NCBI GenBank assembly: GCA_030390025.1
Contig: CM059432.1
Location: 51,958,001-52,022,000, forward strand
Origin: Squalus acanthias
Lineage: Eukaryota
Direction: 5' to 3'
DNA: 64,000 bases
The first letter of the stretch is position 1. Each line of letters opens with the position of its first letter. The translations under genes and the position numbers were made by a program. Shown piece by piece: positions 4,847 to 58,706 of this stretch. Under the pieces are notes generated by a model. It ran no database searches and had not been told where the DNA came from. It saw only the letters and a program-made list of their open reading frames with translations.

Positions 4847-6139
4847 CATTGGACTTTGCCAGTGGACCAACAAACATCGCTCCTCTCTGCATTTCCCTCC
4901 AGAATGTCCATTTACTTTCAAACAAGGTCTTTGGCATCCACTGCATTCTTGTGGATGATTGCATTGACATCGTGCCTTTACCGGAAACTTGGCTCACTTG
5001 TGATGACACCTTTCCCCTTACTGAAGCCTCTCCACCTGGCTATATTTTCCACCACCTGCCCCGCCCAAACCTGCGAAGTGGTGTTATCATCCTTATCACC
5101 AAATTGCACCTGCTTCCTCCCCGTACTCCTCTGGCATCTTCTCCTCCTTCGAGCACCTCACCTATTTCCACCCCTCTCACATCTCCTTTAAAATTCCACC
5201 AAGGCCAAACCAGAGGGTCCCCCACTGCTTTCCTCCCTCAGCCTCTGCACTGAGCGACTCGTCCTCCATTATTTCAATCTCCATCTCAACTCACCTCTCT
5301 GCTCTGATTTCAATGACCTCCTCCCCTCCAATAACCTCTCCCTCCATATAAACTTCCCTACCCAAATTTGCGGCCACCTCTTCAACCTTGCTATGTCATG
5401 TGATCTCATTATATCGATCACAGCCAAGGCCAACTCTGACCACATCCTTGGATCCCTCATCACCCACATTCTCCTACCCACTTCCAACCCCACTTTCTTT
5501 TGCATCTACCACTGGAATAAACTCTCCCCAAGTCACTTTCAAACTCCCAACTGTCGAACTTTTGGCCCGCCATTCGTGACAATACTCCTGTCAATTTCCT
5601 CAATCATTCCCTTACTTACATCTTTGATGCCCTTGTCCCCAATAAAGCTCTTACTCATTCCCACCCTGGTCATTCACCTGATATGGCCCCCATCTTCTTT
5701 CCCTCAAGTCCAAGGGGTGCGGACTTGAGCATATCTGGTGCACAACAGGTACAGCCATTCATTGTCAGATCTGGCTGGATCACATCAGGCACTATCGGGC
5801 TTTGCTCTTCTTTGCCAAAACTGCTCACTGCTACAGGATAACCCTGGAGAGCAAAAATGACCCCCAGCTTCATTCCTCCACTACCAACTGTCTCCTTAAA
5901 CCCCTCTCCTTTATTCCATCCTCACCTCCAACAACAAATGTAAGGAACTCACAGACTTCATCGTCACTAAGATTGAGACCATCCGTTTAGCTGCCTGTTG
6001 CACGCCCCATTCCCCACTAAGCCAAACCTCCTTCGAGATTCCCCTCTGTCCTAGTCCTGACCCCACAACTTTCTTTAGTTTTTCTCCTATCTCCCTTGAT
6101 GCCCTCTCCGAGCTTATCTTCTTCGAGACCCATTGCATG

Positions 6140-6840
6140 TGTAAGATTAGGATCACAGGTCACACACAGATTACCCAAAGGGTCTTAGGAGTTATAAGGC
6201 TTTTTATTCAAGAGCTACAGTTTAATCGTAATCAGATATTACATGTGGTTAAGCTAAGTAAATAGACATACAACCCGTGACTGTAGAGAGCGATCTACGA
6301 CTCCCGGAACGGAACGAAACAACCGGATGGACGGTTGTTGGAGGTGTTAGGCCGTCAGCCACCTCAGAGGCTAAACTTAGCCAAGGTGTTAGGCCTTAGC
6401 CACCTCGGGGAAGCCTTCACCCCTAACTGCCTGATTTCCTCTCTCGGTCGTCTATATTTATAGTTATTTTGCTGGGCTGGTGATTACCTGGTGTCAATCA
6501 TTTGTTCCCCATCCTATTGTCCAATTACAAGTGAGAGGCTACCTATTACAGCCCCTTCCCAGCCTCATGAGATCATTTACCTCCTTATCTCTGTTGTAAA
6601 TGTCTTGTTGTCCTCTCATAGACAGTTTGTTTATCCTATAGCTCCTTGCTGCATCCCTTATCAGCCCTAGTTATGCCCACTCGAAGGCCTGTTTTTGTGT
6701 TCTGACCTCGTAATTCAGCTCTCTGTACAGCTATTTTTCTGGCAGTGACTGGAATCTTTCTGTGTCATCAAATTAGGCAAACTACTGATCTAGGGAACCC
6801 GTAACAGATTATTATTTCTTTCAATCCACGATTTCTTACA
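6140..6840 (-). repeat. 3' LTR of the retrovirus-like element
   Basis: Direct repeat of 11172-11873, with roughly 35-40 differences counted by eye. Minus-strand TATA-like ctataaatatag near 6452-6463 and AATAAA at 6203-6208. Confidence 0.95.
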
Positions 6841-6852
6841 TCTCCCCACCTT
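6841..6852 (-). other. Polypurine tract
   Basis: Minus strand aaggtggggaga directly abuts the tgtaaga start of the 3' LTR. Confidence 0.85.
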
Positions 6853-7176
6853 GAGAAGGAAATATCCTTATTGACTTCTCACAATCGGCTCTTGACTAAT
6901 CTAGCTAGTTCTTATTGCTCTCTCAACTTGGGCGTTATTCAGTAGAGAGTCTCGAAAATGAAGATTTCCCCCTCTCTTACAGTCCATTCCTTTGAAGGGG
7001 AGGAGCAACCTCTGACCCCTTACTCAAATTCAATTCACTGTTCCAGCGTTCCAATTCTGCCCCGCCTGGGGTATCCTCTGTTTCTTCTATCTTTCCTGAT
7101 CTTACCCCGCCTGGGGTCTCCTCTGTGTTGCTTTGATCTTCTCTTTCAGTGTGCTCAATTAATTTGTTGGTGCTGG

Positions 7177-8380
7177 TTAGTCATAGGCATGAGTACACAA
7201 TTGGCTTGTGCATCGAAGTCTTACTACATGGGTTACATATATCAAATACACTATCATTACAAGTTGGAGAACTACCAGAGCGTGTGAAATAATACAAACC
7301 TAAGGGTGTGCTGATGTATTAAGCCCAATTTCCCACCAGTATGAGTTGTCCCCTATGCTGTCAATTTCAATATCTATTCTCGAGTTGTCTTGCTCCAAAA
7401 CATAAAAATGCTTTAGGGAGGAGTTCAGTCGCATCACGAGCTCACTGAAACCCTCAGACAACAGGGGAATGTCATACCCGAATTGTGCCACATAATTGTG
7501 CAGCTCATACTTAAGTATCTCATTTACTGTCAGTTTCACTTGAGCATAGGTTTTGATAGTGAGTAAAACGTGTTGATTGATGGGACAGGTCCTGTTAGAC
7601 CCGTAAAGCATGGTAGTTGCAGTAGTAGTGACACAGGAGGCACCACCAAAACCACCTCATACTGGATTCGTACTGGTTTTTCCCACGCTCTGTTACCTAC
7701 AAAACACAATTATTACAGTCACTGTTAAATTCAGTCTTACAATCATTTCAAGCGACATTACAGTTTAACATCTAATCAACAAATCATAGACTTAAAAGAT
7801 TCGCCAGATCTCTCTTACTCGTATCCATCTTGTGGATAATTCTTGCTAAGCATGATTTCTCCTTAGCTCTCAATTGTCCCAATCCAAATTCCGTGTAACT
7901 CTCCACTTCAACTTCAATTTCAATCCCTCTAACAGGTACCAGTGTGTTTAACTCTATTCTGATTGTTTCATTAATTAGATAGTTTCTCGATGGAGTATGT
8001 GTCAATGCTTTAAAAGTTATCTCACACTCCTGAGCCACATTAACCATTTCATGTCATGCTGTTGTCAAGTAACTGAGCATGTCTGAGACCCATTCTTCAG
8101 TGCAAATTCACCATGCATTTCCCGATGGTAATTGCTTCATACGTAACAAATCACATTTGCACACTCACATCTCAATATCATGCCGCACGTGCCATCCGAT
8201 AGAAGCCATTTTCAGGCTTTCAGGTATCCTATCAAAAGATTGTAGTCGTCTGGAGATCTTTGCTCATCTTCCTCTGCATGGTCCCGATGCCTCGGGTAGT
8301 GGCCAGGCTATCAAATTCAGTTTTCTTAAAAAGTTCATTATAGGCAGGGACACAAATGTCGCCAAGAGAAAGCTATCAAT
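7177..8380 (-). pseudogene. Decayed, internally deleted envelope-like glycoprotein gene
   Basis: One frame with several stops from ~8380 to ~7650: hydrophobic N-terminus FLLATFVSLPIMNF, furin-like TSKR/DLANLL, Cys-rich DCKTEFNSDCNNCVL. After a frameshift: GGASCVTTTATTMLYGSNRTCPI...SYWWEIGLNTSAHP*VCIISHALVVLQLVMIVYLIYV (Trp-rich membrane-proximal region plus TM helix). Lies just upstream of the PPT. Confidence 0.68.
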
Positions 8381-9891
8381 TTACTATTTGTAGCTACACG
8401 TTCCTGACTTTCACTAGAAAGTTTGGAAAATACCCATTTGGTGGTGTAATTTTCCTGTTTCTATCTTACACCCTCAATCACTTCAACTCTCCATTTTACG
8501 CACCCCATTAATTACTATTCATATCTCATTCATGAGCCCTGGAGGAACTTTACTGTCCAGTACAGTATTGATTATTAACACTTTTTATTTCTCATTATTT
8601 TAGAGGATCTTTTATTTTCTCAAAAGTAACCCAATATATAGTGCCTGAGTCCATTTTGTTATTTCAAAATTATCCCAAAATCCAAACAGCAGTATTGTTG
8701 GACTGACCGGTTTTGTCAATGTTCAATTTCATTTCTATCAATTTATCTTATCAATTCCAATTTCAGAAACAAGTGATTCCCAGGCTAGGAGGTTTACATG
8801 GTGTCTTAACATTAGAGAAAGAAGTGCTGCAATTAGTTTACAAGGTAACTTCCATATAACAAAAGAAAGCAGAGAATTAATTGTGGCTCTGCTTAAGAGC
8901 CCAAGGGGTTAATTTATCAAATCATAATTTTCCTTCTGTAACTGTGGGGAAATATTAACTTAAAATTAAGAAACTTAAATTTAATAATGTCCAATATCTT
9001 TAAATTTCATTCAGTAATACTAAAGGTGTTGCTTGGTGAACTTAAACAGCTGTCAGTGGAAAGGGTTAACTCCTTTGCAAGTTTTTAGAAGGTGGAGCGA
9101 AACATTGTCAGGTGCACGGAATTGCGTCACTTCACGTAAATTAAAAAAAACTTTCCTGATCGAAAAAGACAGTTGTGTTTTCACAATTTAATAGGTTAGT
9201 TACCTTTAACAATTCCAATCTAATTCAGACCAATACTGTATTAACGAAACACAGAACAGATAAAACAAAACAAAATAGCGCATGCTTGCAGAAAACAGTA
9301 AATTACATCATATTTCTTATTGTCCTTTCTTCAGATGTGTTTTCAAATGACTGTAAAAATATTGAATACAACTGGAGAAAAATTATTTTTCACATTTAAA
9401 CAAATCAAATCAAACTGCTTTGGAAAATTTCACCATAGCAACCATAACTCCAAGGTTAAATCTTAGACTGAAACTTAGTGTTTTGTTAAACAAACTTTTT
9501 GTTGTTCTTCTCAGTTTTTACACACCAGCTTAACTTAAATTGTAGTTCAAAGTTTTTTTTTCCAATTCTGGGTGCACAATCTTATTCGCACATTCTTAAA
9601 ACTTCCAAAATCCAAGACAAGTCAAAAGGGTTAAACGGCTTTTAACACAGAGAAGTGGGTGGAGCTAAAACACACATAACAGACATGTTTTGTTTTAAAG
9701 ACAGACTTTCAGAGAAAAGGAATACTGTAACTTCTTAAACATTCATAGTCAGGAAACCTTTCACACTTTAACACACACTTTCACACAAACTGAGATTTCA
9801 GCATTTTTTAAGGTTCCTTTCACTCAGCAAATCTTGTGTTTTATTTGTCTTGGCACAGACGTTAATAACTTCCATGTCGGTAAAACTTTAA

Positions 9892-10785
9892 GGGGGAGAA
9901 ATTTGGTATCGCCCCGTTTGGGGCGCAATTATCGGCCGGGCGCAAAGTTTAGCGCCTGGCGCTAATTATCGCCTCCGACTGCAAACTTGGCTTCTATCGC
10001 CCCTGGAGGTGATTGGAGCGCTAAATCAGGCACTGCACACCTCTCTTAAGGCGCTAACGCTGAGGAGCAAGGTGCTACCTCAGAACGCTGGCGAAGCTCA
10101 TGTGATGTCAGTCTGCAATGGAACACAGACACACTGACGCCAGCCAGTTCTTAAAGGGGAGGGTCGATCTTGCTCTCCATCCAAACCCTGCTCATTGCAG
10201 CCTTGAATCTCAGCCTGGAGAGACCTGTACATCAAAGCTGCTGGAAAGAACAATGGAGAGACCCAGGGAAAGAGCTCAGAGTGCAGCCCCCCTAGTCTCT
10301 TCTAAATCGATGCAAGGAAGATCAAATCAAAATGAACCTGCAAAGTGCTGCTCAGTACCCAAAACTCCTCAACACAGCATTGAATATCTCCAGAAGTCTC
10401 TCTCTCTCACTCAGAATGCATGGTGCAAAAATGTCGCCGACAATAAAAGGCAGGAAGCAGGTCGCCTTTAAATAGCGCTCCCCCAGTCCCTTCCCGACTG
10501 CAAAACGCTCCCCTCAACCTGTCGTTGCTAGCGGCAGGCGGTAAGGCAGGGGGCGCCACTCAATATCCGGTCCGGGGCGCTACCAGGGCGTTGCATGCTC
10601 GACTGACGTCACAATCTGCGGGCACAGGAGATCGTGGCGGTAGTGTTTAGCGCCTGCCGCAAAATGTCTGGTCAATTTCGCGAGCGGTGCAAACATCGCC
10701 GCGCCCGAGCGCTAGTTGCTTTGCGCCCCATTAGCGCCCTCTTAAGGCGCTAACGGGAGGTGTAAGCCAACCGAATTTTTCCCCC
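9892..10785. mobile_element. Harbinger MITE nested in the retrovirus-like element
   Basis: TIR gggggagaaatt / aatttttccccc and exact TSD taa (9889-9891, 10786-10788); colinear with 12693-13585. Confidence 0.92.
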
Positions 10786-10899
10786 TAAGTTTCTCTTTTT
10801 TTCCCCCTTTTTTAAATTGGTGTTTCAGCAGCTTTTCCTGGCTTACCAAATCCCTGTTTTTTCACTTTCTTTGCTGAGTTTTCAGATTGGTTAGCCTGC

Positions 10900-11060
10900 A
10901 ATTTAGATTTTTTCCTTTTCTATCTCCCCCCTCTCTCTCCTGCACTTTATGCTTCATCTCCTTCAGACTATCTATCAACTGTTCCCTGTGATATGCCAAC
11001 GCCATTGTATTTCTGGTTTTACCTTTACCACACTCTCTTTCCTGCTCCCTTCTTTCAGAG
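10900..11060 (-). pseudogene. Possible gag N-terminal coiled-coil remnant
   Basis: RREQERECGKGKTRNTMALAYHREQLIDSLKEMKHKVQEREGEIEKEKI* about 100 nt after the PBS. Supported by position and composition only. Confidence 0.3.
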
Positions 11061-11152
11061 GGAAAAAATACTCAGTCTAAGCAAGGATCACGTGCGTTTG
11101 TCCAAGTTCCTCCGGTCCCCACAACCGGAGGCATACAACTCCCAACTCTGTG

Positions 11153-11170
11153 ATCCCACTTCTGACACCA
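11153..11170 (-). other. Primer binding site, tRNA-Leu (CAA/CAG type)
   Basis: Minus strand TGGTGTCAGAAGTGGGAT, 1 nt from the 5' LTR; complementary to the vertebrate tRNA-Leu 3' end AUCCCACUUCUGACACCA. Confidence 0.9.
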
Positions 11171-11171
11171 C

Positions 11172-11873
11172 TGTAAGATTAGGATCACAGGTCACACACA
11201 GATTACCCAAAGGGTCTTAGGAGTTGTAAGGCTTTTTATTAAAGAGCTACAGTTTAAAGCATAATCAGATATTACATGTGGTTAAGCTAAGTATAATAGA
11301 CATACAACCCATGACTGTAGAGAGCGATCTACGACTCCCGGAACGGAACGAAACAACCGGATGGACGGTTGCTGGAGGTGTTAGGCCGTCAGCCACCTCA
11401 GAGGCTAAACTTGGCCAAGGAGTTAGGCCGTAGCCACCTCGGGGAAGCCTTCGCCCCTAACTGCCTGATTTCCTCTCTCGGTCATCTATATTTATAGTTA
11501 TTTCGGATGGGCTGGTGATTACCTGGTGTCAATCATTTGTTCCCCATCCTATTGTCCAATTGCAAGGGAGAGGCTACCTATGACAGCCCCCTCCCAGCCT
11601 CATGATGTCATTTTCCTCCTTATCTCTGTTCTAAATGTCTTGTTGCCCTCTCGTAGACAGCTTGTTTATCCTACAGCTCCTTGCTGCATCCCTTATCAGC
11701 CCTATTATGCCCACTCGAAGGCCTGTTTTTGTGTTCTGACCTCGTAATTCAGCTCTCTGTACAGCTATTTTTCTGACATGACTGGAATCTTTCTGTGTCA
11801 TCAACTTAGGCAAAATGCTGATCTAGGGAACCCGTAACAGACTATTATTTCTTTCAATCCACGATTTCTTACA
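11172..11873 (-). repeat. 5' LTR of the retrovirus-like element
   Basis: Direct repeat of 6140-6840 with TG...CA ends; adjacent to the PBS. Confidence 0.95.
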
Positions 11874-12403
11874 CATGCTCTCTTGACCCCATTCCCACTA
11901 AACTGGTGACCACACAACTTCCCTTCCTGGTCTCCATGCTAGCTGACTATGTCAATAATTCCCTCAGTACTTCCCCTCCCTTTCAAAACTGCCACCATCA
12001 ACCCTCTCCTCAAAAAGCCCACCCTTCATCCCGCTGACCTTGAAAACTATCGGCCTATCTTCAACCTCTGTTTCTTCTCCAAAGTTCTTGAACAAATTGT
12101 TGCCACCGAAATCAATGCCCATCTTTCCCACAACTCCATGTCTGAATCTCTCCAATCAGATTTCTGCTCCTGCCATCACACTGAAATGACCCTAATCAAA
12201 GTCACAAATGACATCCTCTGTGACTGTGACCATAGCGCACTATCCCTCTTTCTCGACCTCTCTGCAGCCTTTGACACGGTCAACCATACCATCCCCCTCT
12301 CGACTCTCAGCTCAGTAGGGCCGTCCTCTCTTGGTTCCAATCTTACCTATTCAATCATTCCCAGAGAATTTCCAGCAATGGCTTCTCTTCCCACCCCCGC
12401 ACC
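11874..12403 (+). mobile_element. L2 LINE RT part (continuation of 4260-6139)
   Basis: FKTATINPLLKKPTLHPADLENYRPIFNLCFFSKVLE...LIKVTNDIL...LDLSAAFDTVNH. Confidence 0.9.
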
Positions 12404-12692
12404 ATAAGGAACTGGGCTATTTTATCTTCCCAGCCGGCCAGCAATGTTCCCGTTTAGCTCCTGCACAGGCCGCTGGCCGGTTTCTCAATAGAAAAAGCGT
12501 GCATGCGCACAAGTTTGAATGGCCCACGGACCCAAAAATAAATTACAGGGAACATCGTCGCCCAGTTTCTGCCAGACAGGTAGGGATAAAATTGCACCAA
12601 GATAGGACGGTCCTGCACCCATGAACTAAAATGCCTTAAAATTAACAAAAGTAAATAAATGCTAACAGAGCAGTCAAATAACTAAACTATTG

Positions 12693-13585
12693 GGGGCAGA
12701 AATTAGGTCGCGCCCCATTTGGGGCGCAAATATCGTCTGGACGCAAATATTAGCGCCTGGCGCTAATTATCGGCACTGACGGGAAACTTCACTTTTACCG
12801 CCCCGGGAGGTGAGTGGAGCGCTAAAGCAGGCGCTGCACACCTCTCTTAAGGCGCAAAGGCCGAGCAGTGAGGCGCTAACTCGGAGCGCTGGCGAAGCTC
12901 ATGTAATGTCAGTCAGCAATGGAACACACACACAATGGCACGGGCCAGTTCTTAAAGGGGATGGTTAATCTTGCTTTCCATCCACATCCTGTTCATTGCT
13001 GCCTTGAATCTCGGCCTGGAGAGACTTGCACATCAAATGTGCTGGAAAGAACAATGGAGAGCACCAGGCAAAGAGCTCAGAGTGCAGCTCCCACGGTCTC
13101 TGCTAAATCGATACAAGGAATGGCAAATCAAAATGAACCTGCAAAGTGCTGCTCAGTACCCAAAACTCCTTCACACAACGTTGAATCTCTCCAGAAGTCT
13201 CTCCCTCTCTCTCTCAGAATGCGTAGTTCAAAAATGCCACCAACAATAAAAGACAGGAAGAGGCCCCCTTTAAATAGCGCCCCCCCCAGCCCCACAGCGA
13301 TTGATAGCGTTCCAGTCTTCTGGTCGTTGGAAGCGCCAGGCGGTAAGGCAGGGGGCGCCACTCAATTTCCGCTACGGGGCGCCCCAAGGGCGTTGCACCA
13401 TGGAATGACGTCACAATCTGCGCGCGCAGGTGGTCGCAGCGGTAAGTTTTAGCGCCGCCGCACAATCTCAAGTTAAGTTCTCGAGCGGCGCAAACATCGC
13501 TGCGCCCGGGCGTTAGCGGCTTTGCGCCCCATTAGCGCCCTCTTAAGGCGCTAACGGGTGGCGCAACCAAGTGAATTTTTACCCC
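12693..13585. mobile_element. Harbinger MITE (same family as 9892-10785)
   Basis: TIR ggggcagaaatt / aatttttacccc and exact TSD ttg (12690-12692, 13586-13588). Confidence 0.92.
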
Positions 13586-14153
13586 TTGATCTTTATGAGG
13601 AGGGTGTCACATGGGTCTTGTGGACTTTTAATTTTGAACTATTCAGTCAAGTTGGGCAAGTGAAGACTGCTTGGTGAAAAGTACATTAGTCAGATTCTGT
13701 AAACAGTGTGTTCTGAGCAGGGTTTATCTTGAAGTGTTGTAATCTAAAAGCAGTTTGAAATGCTGGGACTCTCAGTGCTTAGTTGCTTTTCATGTAATAT
13801 ATTCTAAATCTGAAGGTACAAGCCAGATCATCTCATATTTATATCCTAATAATGGTGAGAAATGAAGGTTGAATACAATAAATCTCTTTTACATATGTTG
13901 TCTCTCTGTGGTGTTTTCTAAAGAGAAAGATGTATGAACATATTGGAGATTATGTAAACCCAAACAAATCCGTTTTTTTTTAATTTAAAACTCTTTATAT
14001 TCTATCCATATTTGTGTGTCTTTGCTGAAAATTAATATTTCTTCAACTAGTTTTATTTAATCAAAAACAACATTGCATTGCTGATGACTGTCAGCTACAA
14101 TATCTTTTAATATTTAATCAGTATATATTTCCTCTGCATCCTCATATTCTCTA

Positions 14154-17243: not shown

Positions 17244-17437
17244 TGTGGTAACACAATACAGCTTCCTGTGACTTGAACTTTATTACATCACTTCCTGTGA
17301 TTAGTCCAGGATAAATACTGGGCTGATCAGTTGGATCCTGGAGAGGCATAGAGTAAGACCTCTTTTGTATGTAGCACCTTTTTAGTTGATTAAAGCTTAC
17401 TTTAAGTTCACCACGCATAAGGCTCATTCTTACGACA
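17244..17437 (+). repeat. 5' LTR of the Gypsy element
   Basis: Identical to 21530-21723 except A17417 vs G21703. ATTAAA at 17389-17394. Confidence 0.97.
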
Positions 17438-17438
17438 A

Positions 17439-17449
17439 TTTAATCAACT
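17439..17449 (+). other. Non-tRNA primer binding site complementary to its own LTR
   Basis: tttaatcaact is the exact reverse complement of agttgattaaa at 17384-17394. There is no TGG next to the LTR. Confidence 0.75.
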
Positions 17450-17515
17450 TTGAAAAACTTCGCACTCAAACTTTTTGGACGAACTCGGAACTAAGGATCC
17501 AGGGAATCACCCATC

Positions 17516-20500
17516 ATGGAAAACATCCTTAAACCATCGCGTCTTGACTTGGACCCAAACACCCCAGCAGCCGGTAAGGTGTGGAAACACTGGTATCGCA
17601 CGTTTGACAATTTTCTCGAATATTGCAAGGCTGATGATGACTCAAAATTGCGGATACTCATCAACTGTGTCACCCCGAATGTATTTCAGTATGTCGAGGA
17701 ATGGGGCAGTTACGAGGAGGCAATTCGGACGCTTAAAAGACTATATACTAAGACACCGAATGAGGTCTATGCCAGACATCTACTAGCTACAGCCCAACAA
17801 GGGCCGGAGGAATCCATTGATAAATTCCTCCAAGAGCTTCGCAGACTTAGTATGGACTGTAACTTTCAGGCGGCCTCAGCTGAGCTGTACCGTGAAGAAA
17901 TGATCCGTGATGCTTTCATCTGCGGGCTTGCCTCCCCATTTATACGCCAGCGTCTACTGGAAAGTAAGACACTTGAGCTTCAGAGAGCTTATGACATGGC
18001 TTGCTCTCTAGATCTGGCAAAAAGAAATGCAGACCTTTATACAGTGCCCGGACCTCGGTCTGCTGCCTTAACTACAGTCAGGCAATTTAAGAGGCCACAG
18101 GTGAACTCTATTAGGGAGGACTTTATCCCTGACGATCAATCTGATGACTTCACTGATGAAGAGGATGATGACCCCACTGTGGCAGCCTCTTGGCAATCTA
18201 AGAAATGCTTCTTTTGTGGTGATGAGTTTCACCCTCGGAAATTCTGCCCTGCTCGCAATGCGTTTTGCAGTCATTGCAACAAAAAGGGTCATTTTGCAAA
18301 GGTTTGCCTATCAAGAGCCTCTACGAGGGCTTATCAAGCTAAGTCCTACCGAACTGCCCCGGTAAGGGCCTATCAAGATGTTCCGGCTAAAATCTATCGT
18401 GCTTCCTCTCGGGTTTTCTCTCGAAGAAACACACCTAGAGTTTCAGCCACTCTTTGTGCAACGACACCAATTACAGCTGCTTGTCCTCAGAACCTATTCC
18501 ATGCAGCTACAAAAGCATCAATTAATGGACATACTTTAGATGCCTTAATTGACTCAGGTAGCACTGATAGTTTCATTAGGGAACAGATTGTTGCAGAGTT
18601 AAAGCTACATGTTTTCCCATCGGACCAGGCAATTGCGATGGCTCAGTCATCACTTAATACCAGAATTTCTGGCTTTTGTATGGTTGAAATAACACTTAAT
18701 GGTCACAGGTATCCCTCCACCCGGCCTTCGGTGCTCAAGGACTTATGTAGTGATCTTATCTTAGGGCTAGATTTTCAAAAGCAGCATAAGAAGCTCACCA
18801 TTGAGTTCGGCGGATCCAAACCTGAACTCACTATTTCTAATATACGACCTCGATTACCGTTCTGTGCATTGTCAGCAGCTTCACTGGATGAACCCTCACT
18901 GTTTACCAGTATCCCTCCTCGATGCAAACTGATTATAACAAAGTCACGACGTTTCAGTCAGGAAGACCAGTCTTTTATTGCGGCTGAGATTTCTCGGCTT
19001 TTAGCAGAGGATATCATCGAGCCTTGTTCGTCGCCATGGCGCGCCCAGGTCGTTATTGTTAAGAACCCTCTACAACCTCACAAGAAACGGCTGTGCATTG
19101 ACTATTCACAGACCATCAATCAATATACGGACTTGGACGCATACCCATTGCCGCGCATCGATGATATGGTTAATAAACTGGCTGAGTACACGGTGTTCTC
19201 AACATATGATCTGAAAAGTGCCTATCATCAGGTACCCTTGAAGGTCTCAGACAAGCAGTATACGGCCTTTGAAGCCAATGGACGGCTGTATCAATTTCGT
19301 CGCCTCCCCTTTGGGGTCACTAATGGAGTGGCTGTCTTCCAGCGAGCAATGGATGACCTGGTCAAACAGGAAGACTTAAAGGATACGTTTCCTTATCTGG
19401 ACAATATTACTGTCGCAGGTCGCAATCAGCGGGAACATGACGCCAATCTCCAACGATTTTGGGATGCACTCCAGCACCGTAATTTGACATTAAATGCGGC
19501 TAAATCCATTGAGTCACAACCAACCATCAACATCCTTGGCTATTGTGTGGGCAATGGCATCATTAAACCTGACCCTGAAAGGCTTCGCCCACTCCAAGAA
19601 CTCCCGCCACCTAAGAATCCGGCCTCCTTGCGCCGGGCCCTCGGCCTGTTTGCATACTATGCTAAATGGATTCCTAACTTCTCGGACCGAATCCAACCTC
19701 TACTGAAGGCCAGCACATTCCCACTAGACACAGCGGCTGTTGCAGCCTTTAACCTCCTGAAAAAACAGTTGGAGAAAGCGGCTCTTCACTCCATCGATGA
19801 GAGTCTTCCTTTTGTTGTTGAGTGTGATGCTTCGGAGGTGGCGATCTCGGCCACTCTGAATCAGGAAGGTCGTCCGGTGGCATTTTTGTCCAGGACTTTT
19901 CAAGCGGCTGAGCTACATTATCCTCCAGTCGAGAAAGAAGCTACAGCCATCATAGAGGCAGTACGGAAGTGGACTCATCTCCTAGCTCGCCAGCACTTTA
20001 CCTTAATCACGGACCAGCGATCGGTCGCCTTCATGCTCGATAATCGAAAACGGACCAAAATTAAAAATAATAAAATCCAGCTTTGGCGGCTGGAATTGGC
20101 CTCTTTTGGTTACACCATCCACTATCGACCTGGCAAGGAGAATGTGGCTCCGGATACCCTCACACGAGCATTCTGCTCCGCCATGGCACCCTCTACGCTC
20201 ATAGACATCCATGATGGGTTGTGTCATCCGGGCGTTACTCGCATGCTACACTTCGTGCGGTCCCGAAATCTCCCATTCTCTACCGGGGATGTAAAGAAGA
20301 TGTGCTCGGACTGCAGAGTCTGTGCGGAATTGAAACCTCGGTTTTTCCGCCCCTCGGGTGGTATACTCATACATGCGACCCAGCCAATGCAACGGCTTAG
20401 CATCGATTTTAAGGGGCCGTTGCCCTCTTCAACTCGCAACACTTATCTATTGACCATGGTCGATGAGTATTCCCGTTTTCCGTTTGCCTTTCCCTGCCCC

Positions 20501-21466
20501 AATATGCTGACGACCACGGTTATCAGCTGCCTTGAGCAGGTATTTGCTTTCTGTGGCATGGCATCCTATGTTTATTCAGATCGGGGCCCTTCTTTTATGT
20601 CAGGAGAACTCAAGGCCTATCTCTCGGAACGGGGTATTGCTGCCAGCAGAACGACGCCTTATCATCCGGTCGGGAATGGGCAAGTCGAGCGTTTTAACGC
20701 TATCATCTGGAATGCGGTACGTCTGGCTTTGAGATCTCGGGGCCTACCCAACCAGCAATGGGAAGCAGTACTTCCAGACGCATTACACTCCACACGGTCC
20801 CTCCTTTCGACCGCCACAAATACGACGCCTCATGAACGGTTCTTCCGATTTCAGCGTCGCTCATCCTATGGGATATCTCTCCCGTCGTGGCTGACTGCAC
20901 CGGGACCAGTGCTACTCCGAAGATATGTTCGGGGGTCTAAGAATGACCCCCTGGTAGATGAGGTTGAGCTCACTGACGTCAACCCTACCTACGCCTATAT
21001 TCGGTATCCTGACGGTCGGGAATCTACCGTGTCATTGCGGGATCTGGCTCCCTGCCCGCCGAAACATAGAGGGACACCAGGGGATGATATTGTACCAGGC
21101 ACATCTCTGGGCTCGCCAGGTGCCTCTCATCACGATCTGGATCTGACGCCGGCTGGTACCTCACTCCAGCGTGCCGACCTGGGGCAGACTGACTATGAGC
21201 CCGTCGGGGCTCGCACGCGCAGCCACGATCCACCCCGTACCATACGCTCGGAAACGGATCTGCCACAGCCCTGCCCGACACCCGTTCGGGCACCAGTACA
21301 CAGTCAGGATCGTCCTGACCCCTCACAGAGCGGGCTGGATCACTCGGACTCTGGTCCACGGCCCGCGGCGGGTAAACGGGCTAGGGGCCCTCTACCGCTA
21401 CGAGAACCCAAACGGGTGCGGCTCTCCCTCGTCCAGCGGCTACGAAATGGAGGGAGAATGTGGTAA
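17516..21466 (+). CDS. Gag-Pol polyprotein, 1316 aa (gag with two CCHC knuckles, protease, RT, RNase H, integrase)
   Basis: Zinc knuckles CFFCGDEFHPRKFC and CSHCNKKGHFAKVC; protease LIDSGST; RT YDLKSAYHQ, LPFG, YLDN; RNase H ECDASE; integrase HDGLCH..CRVC, IDFKGP, SDRG, NGQVERFN. Confidence 0.97.
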   Translation: MENILKPSRLDLDPNTPAAGKVWKHWYRTFDNFLEYCKADDDSKLRILINCVTPNVFQYVEEWGSYEEAIRTLKRLYTKTPNEVYARHLLATAQQGPEESIDKFLQELRRLSMDCNFQAASAELYREEMIRDAFICGLASPFIRQRLLESKTLELQRAYDMACSLDLAKRNADLYTVPGPRSAALTTVRQFKRPQVNSIREDFIPDDQSDDFTDEEDDDPTVAASWQSKKCFFCGDEFHPRKFCPARNAFCSHCNKKGHFAKVCLSRASTRAYQAKSYRTAPVRAYQDVPAKIYRASSRVFSRRNTPRVSATLCATTPITAACPQNLFHAATKASINGHTLDALIDSGSTDSFIREQIVAELKLHVFPSDQAIAMAQSSLNTRISGFCMVEITLNGHRYPSTRPSVLKDLCSDLILGLDFQKQHKKLTIEFGGSKPELTISNIRPRLPFCALSAASLDEPSLFTSIPPRCKLIITKSRRFSQEDQSFIAAEISRLLAEDIIEPCSSPWRAQVVIVKNPLQPHKKRLCIDYSQTINQYTDLDAYPLPRIDDMVNKLAEYTVFSTYDLKSAYHQVPLKVSDKQYTAFEANGRLYQFRRLPFGVTNGVAVFQRAMDDLVKQEDLKDTFPYLDNITVAGRNQREHDANLQRFWDALQHRNLTLNAAKSIESQPTINILGYCVGNGIIKPDPERLRPLQELPPPKNPASLRRALGLFAYYAKWIPNFSDRIQPLLKASTFPLDTAAVAAFNLLKKQLEKAALHSIDESLPFVVECDASEVAISATLNQEGRPVAFLSRTFQAAELHYPPVEKEATAIIEAVRKWTHLLARQHFTLITDQRSVAFMLDNRKRTKIKNNKIQLWRLELASFGYTIHYRPGKENVAPDTLTRAFCSAMAPSTLIDIHDGLCHPGVTRMLHFVRSRNLPFSTGDVKKMCSDCRVCAELKPRFFRPSGGILIHATQPMQRLSIDFKGPLPSSTRNTYLLTMVDEYSRFPFAFPCPNMLTTTVISCLEQVFAFCGMASYVYSDRGPSFMSGELKAYLSERGIAASRTTPYHPVGNGQVERFNAIIWNAVRLALRSRGLPNQQWEAVLPDALHSTRSLLSTATNTTPHERFFRFQRRSSYGISLPSWLTAPGPVLLRRYVRGSKNDPLVDEVELTDVNPTYAYIRYPDGRESTVSLRDLAPCPPKHRGTPGDDIVPGTSLGSPGASHHDLDLTPAGTSLQRADLGQTDYEPVGARTRSHDPPRTIRSETDLPQPCPTPVRAPVHSQDRPDPSQSGLDHSDSGPRPAAGKRARGPLPLREPKRVRLSLVQRLRNGGRMW

Positions 21467-21495
21467 CACAATACAGCTTCCTGTGACTCGAACTT
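21449..21495 (+). repeat. Extra PPT plus first 37 nt of the LTR
   Basis: ggagggagaa followed by tgtggtaacacaatacagcttcctgtgactcgaactt (1 mismatch to the LTR start); contains the ORF stop codon. Confidence 0.9.
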
Positions 21496-21517
21496 CATCC
21501 CAGCCTCCTAATCTTTT

Positions 21518-21529
21518 GGGGGGGGAGAA
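21518..21529 (+). other. Polypurine tract of the Gypsy element
   Basis: ggggggggagaa immediately before the 3' LTR. Confidence 0.9.
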
Positions 21530-21723
21530 TGTGGTAACACAATACAGCTTCCTGTGACTTGAACTTTATTACATCACTTCCTGTGATTAGTCCAGGATAA
21601 ATACTGGGCTGATCAGTTGGATCCTGGAGAGGCATAGAGTAAGACCTCTTTTGTATGTAGCACCTTTTTAGTTGATTAAAGCTTACTTTAAGTTCACCAC
21701 GCGTAAGGCTCATTCTTACGACA
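21530..21723 (+). repeat. 3' LTR of the Gypsy element
   Basis: Direct repeat of 17244-17437. Confidence 0.97.
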
Positions 21724-26717: not shown

Positions 26718-27187
26718 AAGAATGACCTTCTGTTGACCTTCACACAGCTCTCAATATTATTACAGAGCACTTTCACAACACTGATCATTTACACAGGTAT
26801 CCCATAACAATGTAAAATGTCTCAAAGTGCAGGCTGGTGTACTGAGTCACAAGTTTTTTCAACGTCAGCAAAGAGAAACAGGTTTCTGCAGTTCATTGCA
26901 TTGGTCAATGGCAGATCTGAGAATAAAGATCTGGGTCTGTGCCAAACCTTCCTTATCAAAAGTCTGCTTATTCCTACTTGTGCATAGCAGATTATCAAGT
27001 GTGCTTATAAAATGTGCCAAGTTAATCATTCATAACACTTTTCCCAGGGCATATGTTAACATTATGCTTCTTCAATACTTGCACCTGTTGAATCCATTAT
27101 TAAGTACTCCATCAAATTACTTAAATCAAAACAAAGATTCTAAAAGATAAACATTTTAAATAAAGGCCTTGAAATGTTAAAACTTAT

Positions 27188-29218
27188 GGGGGAGAAATTC
27201 GGTATAGCCCCGTTTAAGGTGCTAATTAGGGCTAGAAATTGGGCTCCTTTGCGCCTCCCATTAGCACCTCCGGGGGGCACTAATGGGGTGCAAATGGGTT
27301 TGCAACCAGGTACAGCGATATCAACGCCTCACGCTAAATTCGGTGGGAGTTTTGCGGCGGCGGTAAGACATTGCGGCCCGATCTCCTGCACCCGGAGATC
27401 GTGACATCATTGCCGTGCGTAGTGCCCCGGTTGCGCCCCGGATGAAAAATTTCCTCTCGCCCCCTGCTTGTGCGCCTGCCGTTAACGACAGGTAGAGGAG
27501 GCGGCTTTCAGTCAGATGTCCGCTGGAGGAGCGCTATTTAAAGGCGTCCACATCCGGTTTAGTTTTCGTCTGCCAACAATGCTGCTTTGTTAATTTCACA
27601 TAGGCAAAGTGGCCTTTTGACCGATTTGCACGTTTTGCATTTCAATGAGTGTTCTGGCACATAAAGATTATTGAGTTTCATTGAGGGGAGATTTGAAAGT
27701 GCAATATTTGTATCCTTTGTATCCTTTCATGGGGGCACTGGACCTCGCCCTCCAGTGTCAACATTGGAGGCAACTGAGGCACAGAGAAAGAGTGCAAAAT
27801 GTGGCCAGAGATAGGAGGGCCAACAGGGCTCTCAACAGGAGGATTAACCACCCAGAGTATTCCAGCAGCAGTTCTCCTACATGAATTTCACTGAGGACCA
27901 GTGTGTTAGAAGGCTCTGCTTCAGCAAGGATGTGGTCACAGAGCTCTGCCACCTCCTGCAGCCAGACCTCGAGCCTCAGATCAGGATCACCACGGCTCTC
28001 TCAGTGGCAGTCAAGGTCACCGTCGCCCTCAATTTTTACGCCAGCGGATCATTCCAGTGTGCGACAGGCGACATCTCCAACATCTCCCAGTTTGCCGTCC
28101 ATTGCTCCATCCACCAGGTCACAGATGCTCTGTACAGAAGGAGAAGGGACTACATTTCCTTCCCCATGACCAGAGAGAAACAGCGCGAGCGTGCATGTGG
28201 CTTTGCCAGGATAGCGGGCTCCCCCATGGTTCAGGGCACCATTGACTGCACCCACGTCACTTTGCGGGCACCTCATAACAATTCTGAGATATTCCATAAC
28301 CGCAAAGGCTACCTCTCAGTTAATGTACAATTGGTGTGCGACCACACACAGCGAATCCTCACCATCAAAGCCTGCTATCCTGGCAGCAGCCACGATGCCT
28401 TCAACCTGTGCCAAACTGGTGCACCAGATCTGTTCCAACCACCACATCAAGCTCGCGGCTGGCTGCTGGGAGACAAGGGCTATCCGCTCTCCACCTGGCT
28501 CATGACTCCCCTCCGCAACCTCAACACTTGTGCCCAGCACTCATATAATGACAGCCAGGGAACTTAGGACGCTAACCTCTGAGAGCGGGACGCTACCGGC
28601 AGAGTGATAAAGAAGGTCCTGCGCAGTCCAAACGGCACTCTTTAATCACACAGGCTGCATCCATCTCTTAAAGGGAAGGGCCAATCACGCTGTAGCACCT
28701 CATAGTCATCAGTGGTGTTTTTCAATGTGACCTGGTCGACTGCCATTGCAGCCCCCAGCACTTTCAGAAAGTGCAGCATTTGGAGATGTTTGAGGAAAAG
28801 GTGTAAAAAATTTGCGCAGGCAGCAGACTGGTGTAAGTAATAAATGGTGCAATCACTGAAAGCGCCTTTTTCGCGATGTTCAAGCGACATGGAAGCATTC
28901 CCTTTAATTACCGCTCCTGCAGTGCACTTCCGAGTGCACAACGCCTCCTCTCACTGGCGTTGTAGGCACGAGGCACTAAAGCAGGGGCGAAAGGCAATTT
29001 TGCATCGGGTCCGTTAACGGGGCGTTGCACACGCATTGACGTCACCATGTGAGAGGCGCTAGCGGCCTAGGCGCTAACAGTTAGCGCCAGCGCTAATTCA
29101 CCATTGAAGGTCACGTGCAGCATTGGATTTGCCGCGGCCGGGCGCTAACCCCTTAGCACCCCGTTAGTGCCCCCGCCAGGCACTAACGGGAGTCACTAAC
29201 CTACCAAATTTCGCGGCC
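27188..29218 (+). mobile_element. Internally deleted PIF/Harbinger transposon
   Basis: Ends gggggagaaatt / aatttcgcggcc and exact TSD tat (27185-27187, 29219-29221). Carries a truncated transposase; the Myb-like gene is deleted. Confidence 0.9.
27729..28567 (+). pseudogene. Harbinger (HARBI1-like DDE) transposase, frameshifted and 3'-truncated
   Basis: VKVTVALNFYASGSFQ, GTIDCTHV, NRKGYLSVNVQLVCD, YPGSSHDAF, LLGDKGYPL. Frameshift near 27845; the catalytic Glu region is missing. Confidence 0.92.
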
Positions 29219-37846: not shown

Positions 37847-39618
37847 GGGCTGAACTTTGCCGATGCTCAGAGTGCGGGTTTGGAGGCGGGTCTGCTGTCA
37901 AAATTGAAATGATTGACAGTGGGTTGGAAACCCACTCCGAACCCACCTCCATGTAAGTTTCCAGAGTGTCGGGTCTGCGATTTCAGAACAGACCCGACAC
38001 CAAGCGGCGAGGGAGGCATTTAAGATACTTAACTGCTTGTTTACTACTATTTTGCCAACCTTTTTCTATTTTGCCACATTTTTAACGGGGTTCACGTCGT
38101 TCAGAGATCACGTCAGGTAAGTAGGTCGGGTTCTCTATGTCTCCCCATTGCTGTGAATAGGTGACAGCTGCAAAAGTGGTATAAAAGCTACCATTTCACA
38201 GCTGGTCACTTTCCAATGTCAGAAGCTTGAGCCTTCGAGACTTGAAAGACACTTTTGAGCTGCATGCAGTTTGAAAGTGTTTGGAGTAAACTCTCTATCC
38301 ACTGTCACCTCCTTGGAGCAAGCTCTCTCACCATTGACAGATCGCTTCTGTCATCTCAAATTCAGCTGCCATCTATTCCAGCAACATCAGTGTCCATGAA
38401 AAAATCTCACCTTGTTCCTCTGAATCCCTCCACGATCAGCCCCAACTCCAACATCACCAGGCACACCAACATCACCAACAACACCAACCTTCTCCGCAAT
38501 CACCTGATGCTGCACAGGACACAGGCCATCAGCACCTGACAACAATGCTGCCCGGGGGGCCAGCGATGGCATCATCATGGCCAGATTTACTTCACTTGAT
38601 GTGTACACCCTGGTTGCCACATGATGCGCCAGGTTAACACCACCCCACACCAGCACCACAAAGCATTCCTACAATAACCAAGCCATTCCTTTCACACTCA
38701 TCAGGATTGCGGGGGATACCGTAATGTCTCACCATTCACTGCAACTCACTAAGACACTTCCAAAGGTGAGTTTAGATCTGTCCAATAAAGGGCACTTTTA
38801 GAAAAATAGATTTCACTGTATGACAACACATTACCAGAAACTTCACATGGACATTGGCTAAACCTTTCAAGTGCCTACCCTTGTGTGTTGTTAGTTGGTA
38901 TGATTGCACTAGGATGAGGGTGAGTGTGAGGGGTGGCTAGTGAGATGGGAAGTGATAAAGTAGAGAGAGAGGGTTGGGTGGAGTTGCAAGGTAAGTTGGT
39001 GTGAGTAAGGATGTGCAGGAGAAGGGTATGGAAGGCAGAGTGATGGCAATGTGTTGAGTGGCACAGCAGGGTGAGTTTGAGTGTGACTTTGCAGTAACGT
39101 TTCATGATCCGCTGAGATCATTGAAAGGTTGGCGCCACTGCAGCCAGGCACCCCTGACGACATCCCTGCTTTTGCCCTCCTGTGCAATGTGCAACCAGGT
39201 TGCACTGGTGTCCTGGGGAGGTCTCTTCCACCCTTGGAAGGGAAGAGAACCTCCATGCGCGCTGTGACTCCCTCCATAAGCATATGGAGGGAGTCATGTG
39301 AGAGCCTGGGTGCAAGCGTTCACCTTCGTGCAGTGCTTGTCAGTGTTTGCAGCACCTCAATGCTGTCAAACACTGACAGAACAATTATCAAACTCCATGT
39401 GGACGTGGTCACTTTAAGGAAACCAGCTGATGACGCATCATCAAATGACTTCATCAGACCCAGTTCATGTTAATTGGCCGGGAAGCCCGTGGGGTGAGCT
39501 TAACAAGGCCAATCAAGGGAAAATTACGTCTACAGAGCGGCTGCAGCTGGGAGCGGGACCGGATCCAGGAAATCAGTTCTCCCGCCACCATCCCGTCTCC
39601 TCCATTAAATTTGCGGCC
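37847..39618 (+). mobile_element. Non-autonomous Harbinger derivative with Myb-like remnant
   Basis: Ends gggctgaacttt / aaatttgcggcc and minus-strand MLMEGVTARMEVLFPS. Colinear with 58707-60370 and inverted relative to 39679-41451. Confidence 0.8.
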
Positions 39619-39678
39619 TTAGTTCCCCATTATTTCCAAAATGTTTTTTGTGCCTTCTACCATGAAGACAGTTACAAA
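39619..39678 (-). mobile_element. 60-bp island of the host CR1 family A
   Basis: Reads FVTVFMVEGTKNILEIMGN, the in-frame continuation of KEMAETLNKY at 41452-41484. Confidence 0.85.
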
Positions 39679-41451
39679 GAGCTGAATTTTACGAACCTTA
39701 GCAGGTCTGTGGTGGGTGACGTCGGTGGCGGATCCCGGCTCCGCTGCTGGCTTCAGCCCGCTGTGCAGAATGAATTTACCTTGATTGGGCTTGTCAAACC
39801 CGCCCAATGCATTTCCCGGCCAATTAGAGGAAGCGGGTCTGATGATGTCATTTGATGACACATCATCAGCCTGTTTCCTTAAAGGGACCATGGCCAACTT
39901 TAACTTGATATTTGTGCTGTCAGTGTTCTACAGCATTGAGGTGCTGCAAACACTGACAAGCACAGCACAGAGGTACACAGCTGCACCCAGACTTTCACAT
40001 GACTCCCTCTATTTGCTTATGGAGGGAGTCACAGCACACAGGGAGGTCCTCTTCCCTTCCCATGGGCGGAGAAGACCTCCCTAGGAGATTAACGCAGCCT
40101 GGTTGCACATTGCACATGAGGACACAAGCAGGGATGTGGTCAGGAGGCCCAGGCTGCAGTGGCTCCAACCTTTCAATGATCTCAGTAGATCACAAAATGT
40201 TACTGCCAAGCCACACTCAACCTCATCCTGCTGTGCCATTCATCACATCCCCATCACTCTGCCTTCCCTACCCTACTCCTGCACATCCTTACTCACACCA
40301 ACTTACCTTACACCTCCACCCATCCCTCTCTATCTACATTATCACATCCCCATCTCACTAGCCACCCCTCACACTCACCCTCATCCTAGTCCAATCATAA
40401 CAACTAACAACACACAAGGTTAGGCACTTGAGTGTTTTATCCAATGTTCATGTAAAGTTTCTGTTAATGTGCTGTCAAACATTGAAACCTTTATTTTCAA
40501 CACTTTGCGTTCTTTGACAGATTTGTGTGCACCTTTGGAAGTGGCTTAGTGAGTTGTAGTGAATGGTGAGACATAACGGTATACCCCGCAATGGTGATGA
40601 GTGTGAAAGGAATGGCTTGGGCATTGTAGGGATGTTTTATGGTGTTGGTGTGCGGTGGTGCCAATGTGGCGCATTATGTGGCAGCCAGGGTGTACAGCGT
40701 GAAGTGAAGTAAATATGGCAATGGTGATGCCATCCCTGGCGTCCCAGACAGCAATGTGGTCAGATGCTGATGCCCTGTGCAGCATTAGTTGATTGCAGAG
40801 AAGGTTGGTGTTTTTGTTGGTGCTGCTAATGTGCCTGGTGATGCTGGTGTGCCTAGTGATGCTGGTGTTGGGGCTGATCGTGGTGGGATTCTGAGGACCA
40901 AGGTGAGAGAGTTTCAATGGCACCCATGCAGATGGAATAGATTGCAAGTGAAGTAGAGATGACAGAAGCGATCTGTCAATGATGGGAGAGGTAATGAGGT
41001 GAGACTGGATGGAGACTTGTGTAAAGACTTGCAGCATTCTGAATCTGTAGTGGAAATGCAGTTTAGAGAAGCTAGTGGTTAAGGGAACATTTCTCAATCA
41101 GCTGGGAGCTTTGATTTGACATTTGAAGCTGTCAACTCATCAGCTGATTCAATGGCCAAGCTTCACAGACAAGGTCTAGGCACAGCGGGAAACCGGTGGG
41201 TGGCCTGTCAAATTCAAAAAGCTGGGGAAAAAACCATTGTTAAGTGGCTGTAAACAAGCCACTAATGATTTTAATTGCCTCCCCCGCCGCTGCGTGTCGG
41301 GTCTGCTCAGCGCTGACAGACCCGACATTTGGTAAAGGCGTGTGGTGCCGGGTTCACAGCGGGGTCCCGACCCGCTGGAGAAAAGAACCACTTTCCCACC
41401 TGACCCGCCACCGATCGCACCCGCTGACCCCCCCCCCACAAAATCCAGCCC
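39679..41451 (-). mobile_element. Non-autonomous Harbinger derivative (opposite orientation)
   Basis: TIR gagctgaatttt / aaaatccagccc, exact TSD aaa (39676-39678, 41452-41454), and AAPRLSHDSLYLLMEGVTAHREVLFPSHGRRRP remnant. Confidence 0.9.
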
Positions 41452-45700: not shown

Positions 45701-45783
45701 ACCCATCTGATTCCCTGACCTTCTCCGCACAGGGCTGAGGAAAGCGTGGTGGTGCAGGTGGCAGCCACCACACCATTGGGTAC

Positions 45784-46163
45784 TGCGCATGCGTGACCGG
45801 ATCGAGTGCACATGCACGACCGGATCGAGTGCGCATGCGTGACCGGATCGAGTGCACATGCGTGACTGGATCGAGTGCGCATGCGTGATTGGATCGAGTG
45901 CGCATGCGTGACCGGATCGAGTGCACATGCACGACCGGATCGAGTGCGCATGCGTGACTGGATCGAGTGCACATGCATGACCGGATCGAATGCGCATGCG
46001 TGACTGGATCGAGTGCACATGCATGACCGGATCGAATGCGCATGCGTGACTGGATCGAGTGCACATGCATGACCGGATCGAATGCGCATGCGTGACTGGA
46101 TCGAGTGCACATGCACGACCGGATCGAATGCACATGCACGACTGGATCGGGTGCACATGCGTG
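45784..46163. repeat. 23-bp minisatellite, 16.5 copies
   Basis: Unit tgcRcatgcRYgacYggatcgaR. Unit 17 starts at 46152 (16 x 23 from 45784). Confidence 0.97.
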
Positions 46164-46793
46164 GTACCAAACAAGCACGTGTGCGCAGAGAGAGTCAAAA
46201 AAGCGGTGCAAATAATCACTCCAGGTTTAAATGGTTTTCTGCTGTCTCAGATTTCCACAGAATTTTGCTTTTTTTTCACATTTAACTGTTGTTTTTCAGG
46301 ATAACTCATTTATCAGGTTTGAATGAAGTACAAGGTTCAGCAGTAGAAATCAAACCAGTTTATTAGCACAATCCCTATCAGGCAATTTGCAGTTTGCACA
46401 ATGCTGTGCATGCTAATTTCAAGCAATTTTCTTTTTACACAATTTGACTTCCACATGACCGAGCCAGTAAATCTTCTCAAACCCTGTCTGTCCTGCATCA
46501 GGTCTAACCTTCACCAGGGGTTTATCTATGGGTTATCTAGGGTTTATCTACATTAATTTTGAATTTGTATTTTATCCAGGCATAAAGAGGGAGAGAGAGA
46601 AAGAAACTTACCTTTATCTTCCCACCTATTCCTCTTCCCCAAATCATGCAGGCTTTGCAGGAAGGAAAATTTGCAAATCAACATTGCCAGCGTGGCAATT
46701 CACATTCCTGCATTAGCTGTTAGCACAGCTTCCACATAGGGGTGCCAATCCTCCCAGATTGTCTTGGGGTCTCCCAGAACTAAAAAAAAAATA

Positions 46794-58607: not shown

Positions 58608-58706
58608 TCAGCCATGATCTTATTGAATGGCGGAGCAGGCTCGAAGGGCCAAATGGCCTACTCCTGCTCCTATTTCTTATGTTCTTATTTTCTTATATTT
58701 GACCTT

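What the first reader, a model, noticed from the sequence alone, without database searches (positions are those of the whole stretch)
6140..11873. tRNA-Leu-primed retrovirus-like element that lost pol but kept an unusual env-like gene
Seen: complete cis machinery (two 0.7-kb LTRs, 18-nt Leu PBS, PPT, CATG TSD) around only ~3.4 kb of internal DNA once the MITE is removed, with no RT or integrase motif that I can find. The 3' internal part reconstructs to signal-like peptide, SKR/DL cleavage-like site, Cys-rich block (C..CVL..GG..CVTT..C), WW membrane-proximal region and TM helix. I see no gamma/epsilon-type immunosuppressive-domain plus CX6CC motif. The internal region is much more decayed than the ~5% LTR divergence would predict. 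Inference: it was already non-autonomous and was mobilised in trans. The Cys-rich layout is reminiscent of the paramyxovirus-F-like env of lokiretroviruses or fish foamy-like ERVs; as I recall, cartilaginous fishes were not among the originally reported lokiretrovirus hosts.
Basis: partly seen in the sequence, partly recalled or inferred. Interest (0 to 1): 0.7.

Follow-up and report, generated by a model that had tools for sequence, protein, structure and literature searches.

The report
Coding-dead shark retroelement with envelope relic
This is one old copy of a repeated, protein-less retrovirus-like element in a cartilaginous-fish genome that must have borrowed its copying enzymes, and it keeps only the broken tail end of an envelope gene probably related to the fusion proteins of measles-type viruses.

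Summary
The cis anatomy is real: two LTRs 4.3% apart, CATG target duplication, an 18/18 tRNA-Leu(CAA) primer site, a polypurine tract, and 3.4 kb of internal DNA once a MITE is removed. No gag or pol was detected. The element did not keep an env gene. Only about 530 nt (7711-7180) match shark and skate Env proteins (E down to 5e-15): the end of the Cys-rich region, the stalk, the Trp-Trp motif and the membrane anchor, all broken. The proposed signal peptide and SKR/DL cleavage site score no better than shuffles. The relatives look F-type by layout, a weak Baculo_F hit and language-model neighbours; my two folds failed. Contigs from four runs of three organism labels cover the whole internal region, and a 10%-divergent copy is collinear across the env breaks. 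So the family probably spread in trans already coding-dead, like mouse ETn or VL30. The helper is unidentified. Lokiretrovirus membership could not be tested and looks unlikely. This scan has already noted F-type Env proviruses, including pol-less ones, on other DNA of this genome; those younger copies are more informative.

The parts
6136..6139 (.). target-site duplication CATG, left
6140..6840 (-). 3' LTR, 701 nt, TG...CA
6841..6852 (-). polypurine tract
7180..7711 (-). broken env relic: end of Cys-rich region, stalk helix, Trp-Trp motif, membrane anchor. Stops near 7699 and 7302, inferred frame changes near 7680 and 7657, about 15 residues missing near 7575 relative to the relatives
7240..7296 (-). 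predicted transmembrane helix (Kyte-Doolittle 19-residue mean 2.49)
7712..9888 (-). AT-rich (35% GC) internal DNA with no detected coding homology, repeated in other copies; contains the unsupported SKR/DL reading near 7810
9892..10785 (.). inserted MITE with short terminal inverted repeats and TAA duplication (PIF/Harbinger-like, recalled)
10789..11152 (-). 5' leader; a short Met-initiated frame at 11005-10862 has no Pfam or PDB match
11153..11170 (-). primer-binding site, 18/18 tRNA-Leu(CAA), one base after the LTR
11172..11873 (-). 5' LTR, 702 nt; TATAAA at sense position 378 and AATAAA at 634
11874..11877 (.). target-site duplication CATG, right; the element interrupts a decayed LINE reading frame

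Best explanation
One copy of a non-autonomous LTR family descended from an env-bearing retrovirus-like element of cartilaginous fishes. Shown: complete cis signals, no detectable gag or pol, an env C-terminal relic homologous to chondrichthyan Env, and a repeated internal region. Inferred: the founding copy had already lost its coding capacity. Its RNA was packaged by a related autonomous element, primed with tRNA-Leu(CAA), reverse-transcribed and integrated with a 4-bp duplication (complementation in trans). The env tail most likely persists as a passenger next to the 3' cis region, not as a working gene. The MITE and about 2% private changes came after insertion, roughly 10-100 Myr ago depending on the rate. 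The parent Env was probably an F-type class I fusogen.
For: LTR, PBS, PPT and TSD. Env homology: 6 hits, E 4.7e-15 to 3.4e-7, 5 of 6 named from sharks or a skate; hhalign 99.4%; frameshift-aware profile score 241 against a shuffle maximum of 47. 7712-9882 is as closed as random DNA: longest sense frame 89 codons, reached by 12% of 500 shuffles, while 0 of 500 coding templates decayed at the LTR rate fell that low. All 30 bins are covered in 4 of 4 runs. X1 record 3 spans 7478-7711 with 24 differences and 0 gaps; X6 record 18 spans 7278-7615 at equal length with 53 differences; one X3 joint skips the MITE. A best word share of 0.46 fits about 2.5% private change. F-type evidence: Baculo_F E=0.0011 on the matching part of P0007; atlas neighbours Baculo_F 0.94 and Fusion_gly 0.93; furin site followed by about 460 residues in P0009 and no CX6CC in 4 of 4 relatives checked.
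Against: No genome is held, so no full-length sibling or helper was seen. Loose ends at 8572-8573 (X3, X9) and 9443 (X6, X9) show that other copies carry sequence this copy lacks, so longer members may exist. X3 record 11 (7646-7872) has 2 gaps, so not every copy is collinear. Only 40 of 507 substitution rows, 12 of 18 indel rows and 32 contig pieces of over 256,000 were shown. The two frame changes rest on ~30%-identical proteins (0 of 40 shuffles reached the score at one penalty, 3 of 40 at another). Both AlphaFold models failed (pLDDT 35 and 36). The Baculo_F hit is below the curated cut-off (18.1 against 24.1 bits) and appeared in 1 of 12 relatives scanned.
Confidence: 0.72

Rival explanations
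1. A once-complete provirus that lost gag, pol and most of env only after insertion at this locus.
For: Other copies carry extra sequence at 8572 and 9443. The breaks in the env relic alone are not far above what the LTR indel rate predicts (about 2 expected in 530 nt, arithmetic).
Against: The 2.2 kb upstream of the relic shows no coding trace yet is repeated in 4 of 4 runs. A 10%-divergent copy is collinear across the env breaks.
Confidence: 0.1
2. A satellite of an env-less Gypsy element that picked up an env fragment by recombination or nested insertion; the env tail says nothing about the helper.
For: A Leu PBS and TG...CA ends are not diagnostic: an environmental Gypsy with no env frame listed has the same PBS and the same last five LTR bases. 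The element has no enzyme gene by which to place it.
Against: The relic sits where env belongs, on the sense strand about 330 nt before the PPT, and no insertion borders were noticed.
Confidence: 0.1
3. A defective lokiretrovirus, extending that lineage to cartilaginous fishes.
For: Lokiretrovirus Env is F-like, with an RXKR site, fusion peptide, coiled coil and membrane anchor (PMC7947760); the relatives share that layout.
Against: That paper lists no cartilaginous host. Its genome table includes Chiloscyllium punctatum and Scyliorhinus torazame, the two species that hold full-length relatives of this Env.
Confidence: 0.08

Closest known systems
Mouse ETn (helper MusD), VL30 (helper MLV) and MaLR non-autonomous LTR elements (PMC6466679, passages)
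   Same: LTRs and cis signals without coding capacity, only traces of retroviral homology, moved in trans. This is what the element works like.
   Different: Cartilaginous-fish host, tRNA-Leu(CAA) primer, relic of a probably F-type env, helper unknown.
Chondrichthyan Env-like proteins P0004/P0010, P0005, P0008, P0009, P0016 (unnamed or 'uncharacterized' in the databases)
   Same: Homologous C-terminal ~150-180 residues at 28-41% identity.
   Different: Full-length relatives are about 740-750 aa with surface part, furin site and long helix; none of that is detectable here.
Lokiretrovirus Env (Wang and Han, PMC7947760; parts 1-3 of 4 and supplement passages)
   Same: F-like envelope on a vertebrate LTR retroelement.
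F-type Env of Ty3/gypsy errantiviruses, and baculovirus and paramyxovirus F (PMC13524379, passages)
   Same: Nearest named families for the relatives (PF12259, PF00523); some errantiviruses use Leu primers.
   Different: That study found no intact vertebrate elements homologous to invertebrate errantiviruses.

Membership tests
Non-autonomous LTR retroelement (ETn/VL30/MaLR kind) | Paired LTRs, PBS, PPT, target duplication | tested here: met
Non-autonomous LTR retroelement (ETn/VL30/MaLR kind) | No enzyme genes | tested here: met
Non-autonomous LTR retroelement (ETn/VL30/MaLR kind) | Defective structure amplified in many copies | tested here: inconclusive
   all bins covered and two divergent contigs collinear across env breaks, but the contigs are short and no second whole locus was seen
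Non-autonomous LTR retroelement (ETn/VL30/MaLR kind) | Identified autonomous helper | not testable with these tools
   no genome held; LTR motif absent from viral and metagenome contigs
F-type class I fusogen (PF00523/PF12259) | Furin site, fusion peptide and long first helix in this element | tested here: not met
   present only in the relatives
F-type class I fusogen (PF00523/PF12259) | Profile similarity of the relatives to F families | tested here: inconclusive
   Baculo_F E=0.0011, below cut-off, in 1 of 12 relatives; atlas 0.94 and 0.93
F-type class I fusogen (PF00523/PF12259) | F fold | tested here: inconclusive
   models at pLDDT 35-36; 11 of 50 Foldseek rows are F0 but none reach E 0.001
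Gamma-type retroviral Env | CX6CC motif in the TM subunit | tested here: not met
   none on the sense strand or in 4 of 4 relatives; definition from bioRxiv 2021.11.23.469661 passages
Lokiretrovirus | RT clade, tether plus RNase H, CGIN1-like integrase | not testable with these tools
   the element has no pol
Foamy-like ERV (FLERV) | Lys or Asn primer site as reported for full-length FLERVs | tested here: not met
   Leu(CAA) here; PMC5512871 passages. The primer is a weak criterion
Metaviridae (Gypsy) | Gypsy RT and integrase in the element or helper | not testable with these tools
   no pol; the PBS is shared with a Gypsy

The most novel reading that the evidence does not exclude
The parent was an env-bearing Gypsy (errantivirus-like) element, so cartilaginous fishes carried a vertebrate lineage of enveloped Metaviridae with an F-type fusogen, and this Leu-primed family is its coding-dead satellite. 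The primer, LTR end and nearest Env family (Baculo_F) allow this; a recent survey found no such intact elements in vertebrates.
Probability: 0.12. Interest if true: 0.75.

Novelty: new member of a known kind. Interest (0 to 1): 0.33.

Why it matters
It adds a Leu-primed, divergent branch (28-41% identity) to a group of probably F-type envelopes found across sharks and a skate, which I did not find described in print. If those envelopes sit on non-lokiretrovirus backbones, F-type Env was widespread among early vertebrate retroelements, which bears on where retroviral Env came from. It is also an ETn/VL30-like parasite in a cartilaginous fish. This copy is a poor witness, though: it has no pol and only a third of the fusion subunit. 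Intact relatives answer the question better.

Tried and rejected
Own-genome search: no genome held. Word-indexed protein search with the 118-aa frame among longer proteins: 0 of 244 candidates. Viral-contig scans with the relic, P0010, A4 and P0009: none confirmed. Metagenome scan with A4: none. LTR motif in metagenome and viral contigs: 0. PDB by sequence: nothing credible. PHROGs: nothing. Rfam: 0 matches. ARAGORN: 0 tRNAs. AlphaFold2 of two natural relatives with 8-row alignments failed; the VIA-align search returned only generic helical hairpins, and Foldseek gave no E below 0.001. The atlas search with P0009 gave only a 0.82 unnamed cluster. Several by-eye matches upstream of 7712, in different frames, were rejected because none beat shuffles. 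None of the 7 listed variant sites checked in 7215-7893 falls in the two stops, but only 40 of 507 rows were shown, so this is uninformative. Summed contig depth was not used as a copy number. No RNA holder was listed. Three sequence look-ups with the element's DNA or P0010, and one with P0009, found no earlier notes. The intact Gypsy at 17244-21723 was rejected as helper: different LTR, no Leu primer.
Full report
Anatomy. The element runs on the minus strand from 11873 to 6140. Its LTRs are 702 and 701 nt, begin TG and end CA, and differ at 30 of 699 aligned positions with five one-base gaps (K2P 0.044). CATG flanks both ends, and the element interrupts a decayed LINE frame. One base after the 5' LTR is an 18-nt primer site identical to the first 18 letters of a published tRNA-Leu(CAA) probe (PMC7997516, one passage). 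A purine tract abuts the 3' LTR. An 894-nt MITE with a TAA duplication sits at 9892-10785, leaving about 3.4 kb of internal DNA. The LTR age is 10, 44 or 100 Myr for rates of 2.2e-9, 0.5e-9 or 2.2e-10 (rates from PMC7947760, PMC10699275 passages and PMC4422223 part 1 of 2).

No gag or pol. Thirteen frame pieces, read with X at stops, gave no credible Pfam family. Six-frame motif scans found no RT or protease motif, and the only two integrase-like spacings are on the antisense strand. A Gypsy polyprotein hit the window only at 17702-20719. The 5' leader frame has no PDB match.

The env relic is real but short. phmmer of 7656-7174 against 1.84 billion representatives returned 6 proteins, E 4.7e-15 to 3.4e-7. 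Five are named from Heptranchias, Pristiophorus, Heterodontus, Rhinoraja and Chiloscyllium, and one is unnamed; the host is therefore inferred to be a cartilaginous fish. Identity is 28-41% and hhalign gives 99.4% over 137 columns. A frameshift-aware profile alignment covers 7711-7210 with score 241 against a shuffle maximum of 47, and single-protein matches reach about 7180. The relic lacks about 15 residues near 7575, including a cysteine kept in the relatives, has stops near 7699 and 7302, and has two inferred frame changes near 7680 and 7657. The frame changes are only modestly supported (0 of 40 and 3 of 40 shuffles reached the score at two penalties).

The N-terminal reconstruction fails. 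Upstream of 7712, nothing beats shuffles by sliding HMM (426 pieces), local alignment, anchored extension or hhalign. In 4 of 4 relatives the furin site lies 252-260 residues before the NC motif, whereas SKR/DL lies 33 codons before it, and no R-x-K/R-R motif occurs on the sense strand between 7180 and the MITE. SKR/DL could mark a cleavage site only if about 220 residues had been deleted, which I could neither show nor exclude. The profile is shallow, so a very diverged upstream part could be missed.

What kind of Env. The fuller relatives show a surface part, a furin site, a Gly-rich peptide, a long helical region, a Cys-rich region, a stalk and an anchor; this layout is read from the alignment. 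None of the four checked has CX6CC, the gamma-type mark (bioRxiv 2021.11.23.469661, passages). The part of P0007 that matches the window hits Baculo_F at E=0.0011, below cut-off, the only such hit among 12 relatives scanned. The atlas places P0010 next to Baculo_F (0.94) and paramyxovirus Fusion_gly (0.93) clusters, with a low recognition value. Both folds failed. On the poor model, 11 of the top 50 Foldseek rows were F0 proteins, none significant. F-type is thus likely, about 80% in my judgement, but not shown here.

Family behaviour. Twenty of 23 listed runs hold part of 6140-9880, at up to 0.46 of words, across eight organism labels. I laid 4 of them on 5700-11200. All 30 bins were covered in all four, including the non-coding 7712-9880. 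X1 record 3 spans the missing-residue site and both frame changes with 24 differences in 234 letters and no gap. X6 record 18 spans the missing-residue site at equal length with 53 differences. One X3 joint skips the MITE. At 6 of 7 listed LTR sites the other LTR agrees with the other copies, so those changes are private, and a 0.46 word share fits about 2.5% private change. Such decay leaves long frames: 0 of 500 simulated coding regions fell to the observed 89 codons, while 12% of shuffles reach it. So the internal region was already non-coding when this copy inserted. Against full uniformity: X3 record 11 has two gaps over 7646-7872, loose ends at 8572 and 9443 show sequence that this copy lacks, and the tool showed only a small part of its rows.

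Mechanism. Most likely a coding-dead LTR family copied by a helper's Gag and Pol, as ETn is by MusD and VL30 by MLV (PMC6466679, passages; complementation in trans, PMC10435555, passages). The cis signals, gene loss and repetition are shown. Packaging by a helper and passive retention of the env tail are inferred.

Comparison. Lokiretroviruses have F-like Env but are defined by RT. The paper lists no cartilaginous host, and its supplement shows a Chondrichthyes row '3, 0' parsed from a figure (PMC7947760, parts 1-3 of 4 and supplement passages). Its genome table includes the two species with full-length relatives of this Env, which suggests a non-loki carrier. Full-length fish and amphibian foamy-like ERVs use Lys or Asn primers, and no env was found for the ghostshark ones (PMC5512871, passages). 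Errantiviruses carry F-type Env and sometimes Leu primers, but no intact vertebrate homologues were found (PMC13524379, passages). A Gypsy with no env frame listed shares this primer site, so the primer does not name the helper. Passages of PMC11089739, PMC4977317 and bioRxiv 2024.03.17.585361 did not describe F-type Env in shark ERVs; bioRxiv supplements were closed and most subscription papers are not held. Earlier unchecked notes of this scan report young F-type-Env and pol-less proviruses elsewhere in this genome, one placing the carriers with the snakehead-retrovirus clade.

Verdict. A real, old, non-autonomous LTR element with a short relic of a probably F-type envelope: a new member of a known kind, of modest interest, with a small chance of pointing to an enveloped vertebrate Gypsy lineage.

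Noticed in passing
window 17244-21723 (+): Young, apparently intact Gypsy: LTRs 99% alike and one 1317-codon gag-pol frame with protease, RT, RNase H and integrase. The bases after the 5' LTR look complementary to its own LTR rather than to a tRNA (by eye), like the self-priming family in earlier notes.
   Followed up: partly
window 21460-21530: A partial duplicate of the Gypsy LTR start, with its own purine run, lies just before the 3' LTR.
   Followed up: no
window 9892-10785 and about 12693-13586; weaker at 27178-27549 and 28891-29192: A very abundant MITE family with 3-bp target duplications; far deeper in all four runs than its neighbours.
   Followed up: partly
window 5900-6139 and 11874-12407 (+): The element interrupts a decayed LINE whose RT frame continues across the site (RVT_1 E=9e-9).
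   Followed up: partly
P0006, P0007, P0015: Database gene models of shark cadherin-like, fbxo15 and Niban-like genes include pieces of this Env family. These may be prediction artefacts or exonised env.
   Followed up: no
P0009 and P0016: Full-length Env frames from two shark orders align at 85-86% identity, high for a viral gene; a co-opted orthologous gene is possible.
   Followed up: no
window 45715-46220: Tandem array with a 23-nt period.
   Followed up: no
window 38255-41433 and 58606-60363: Further large direct and inverted repeats, 76-93% alike, not identified.
   Followed up: no
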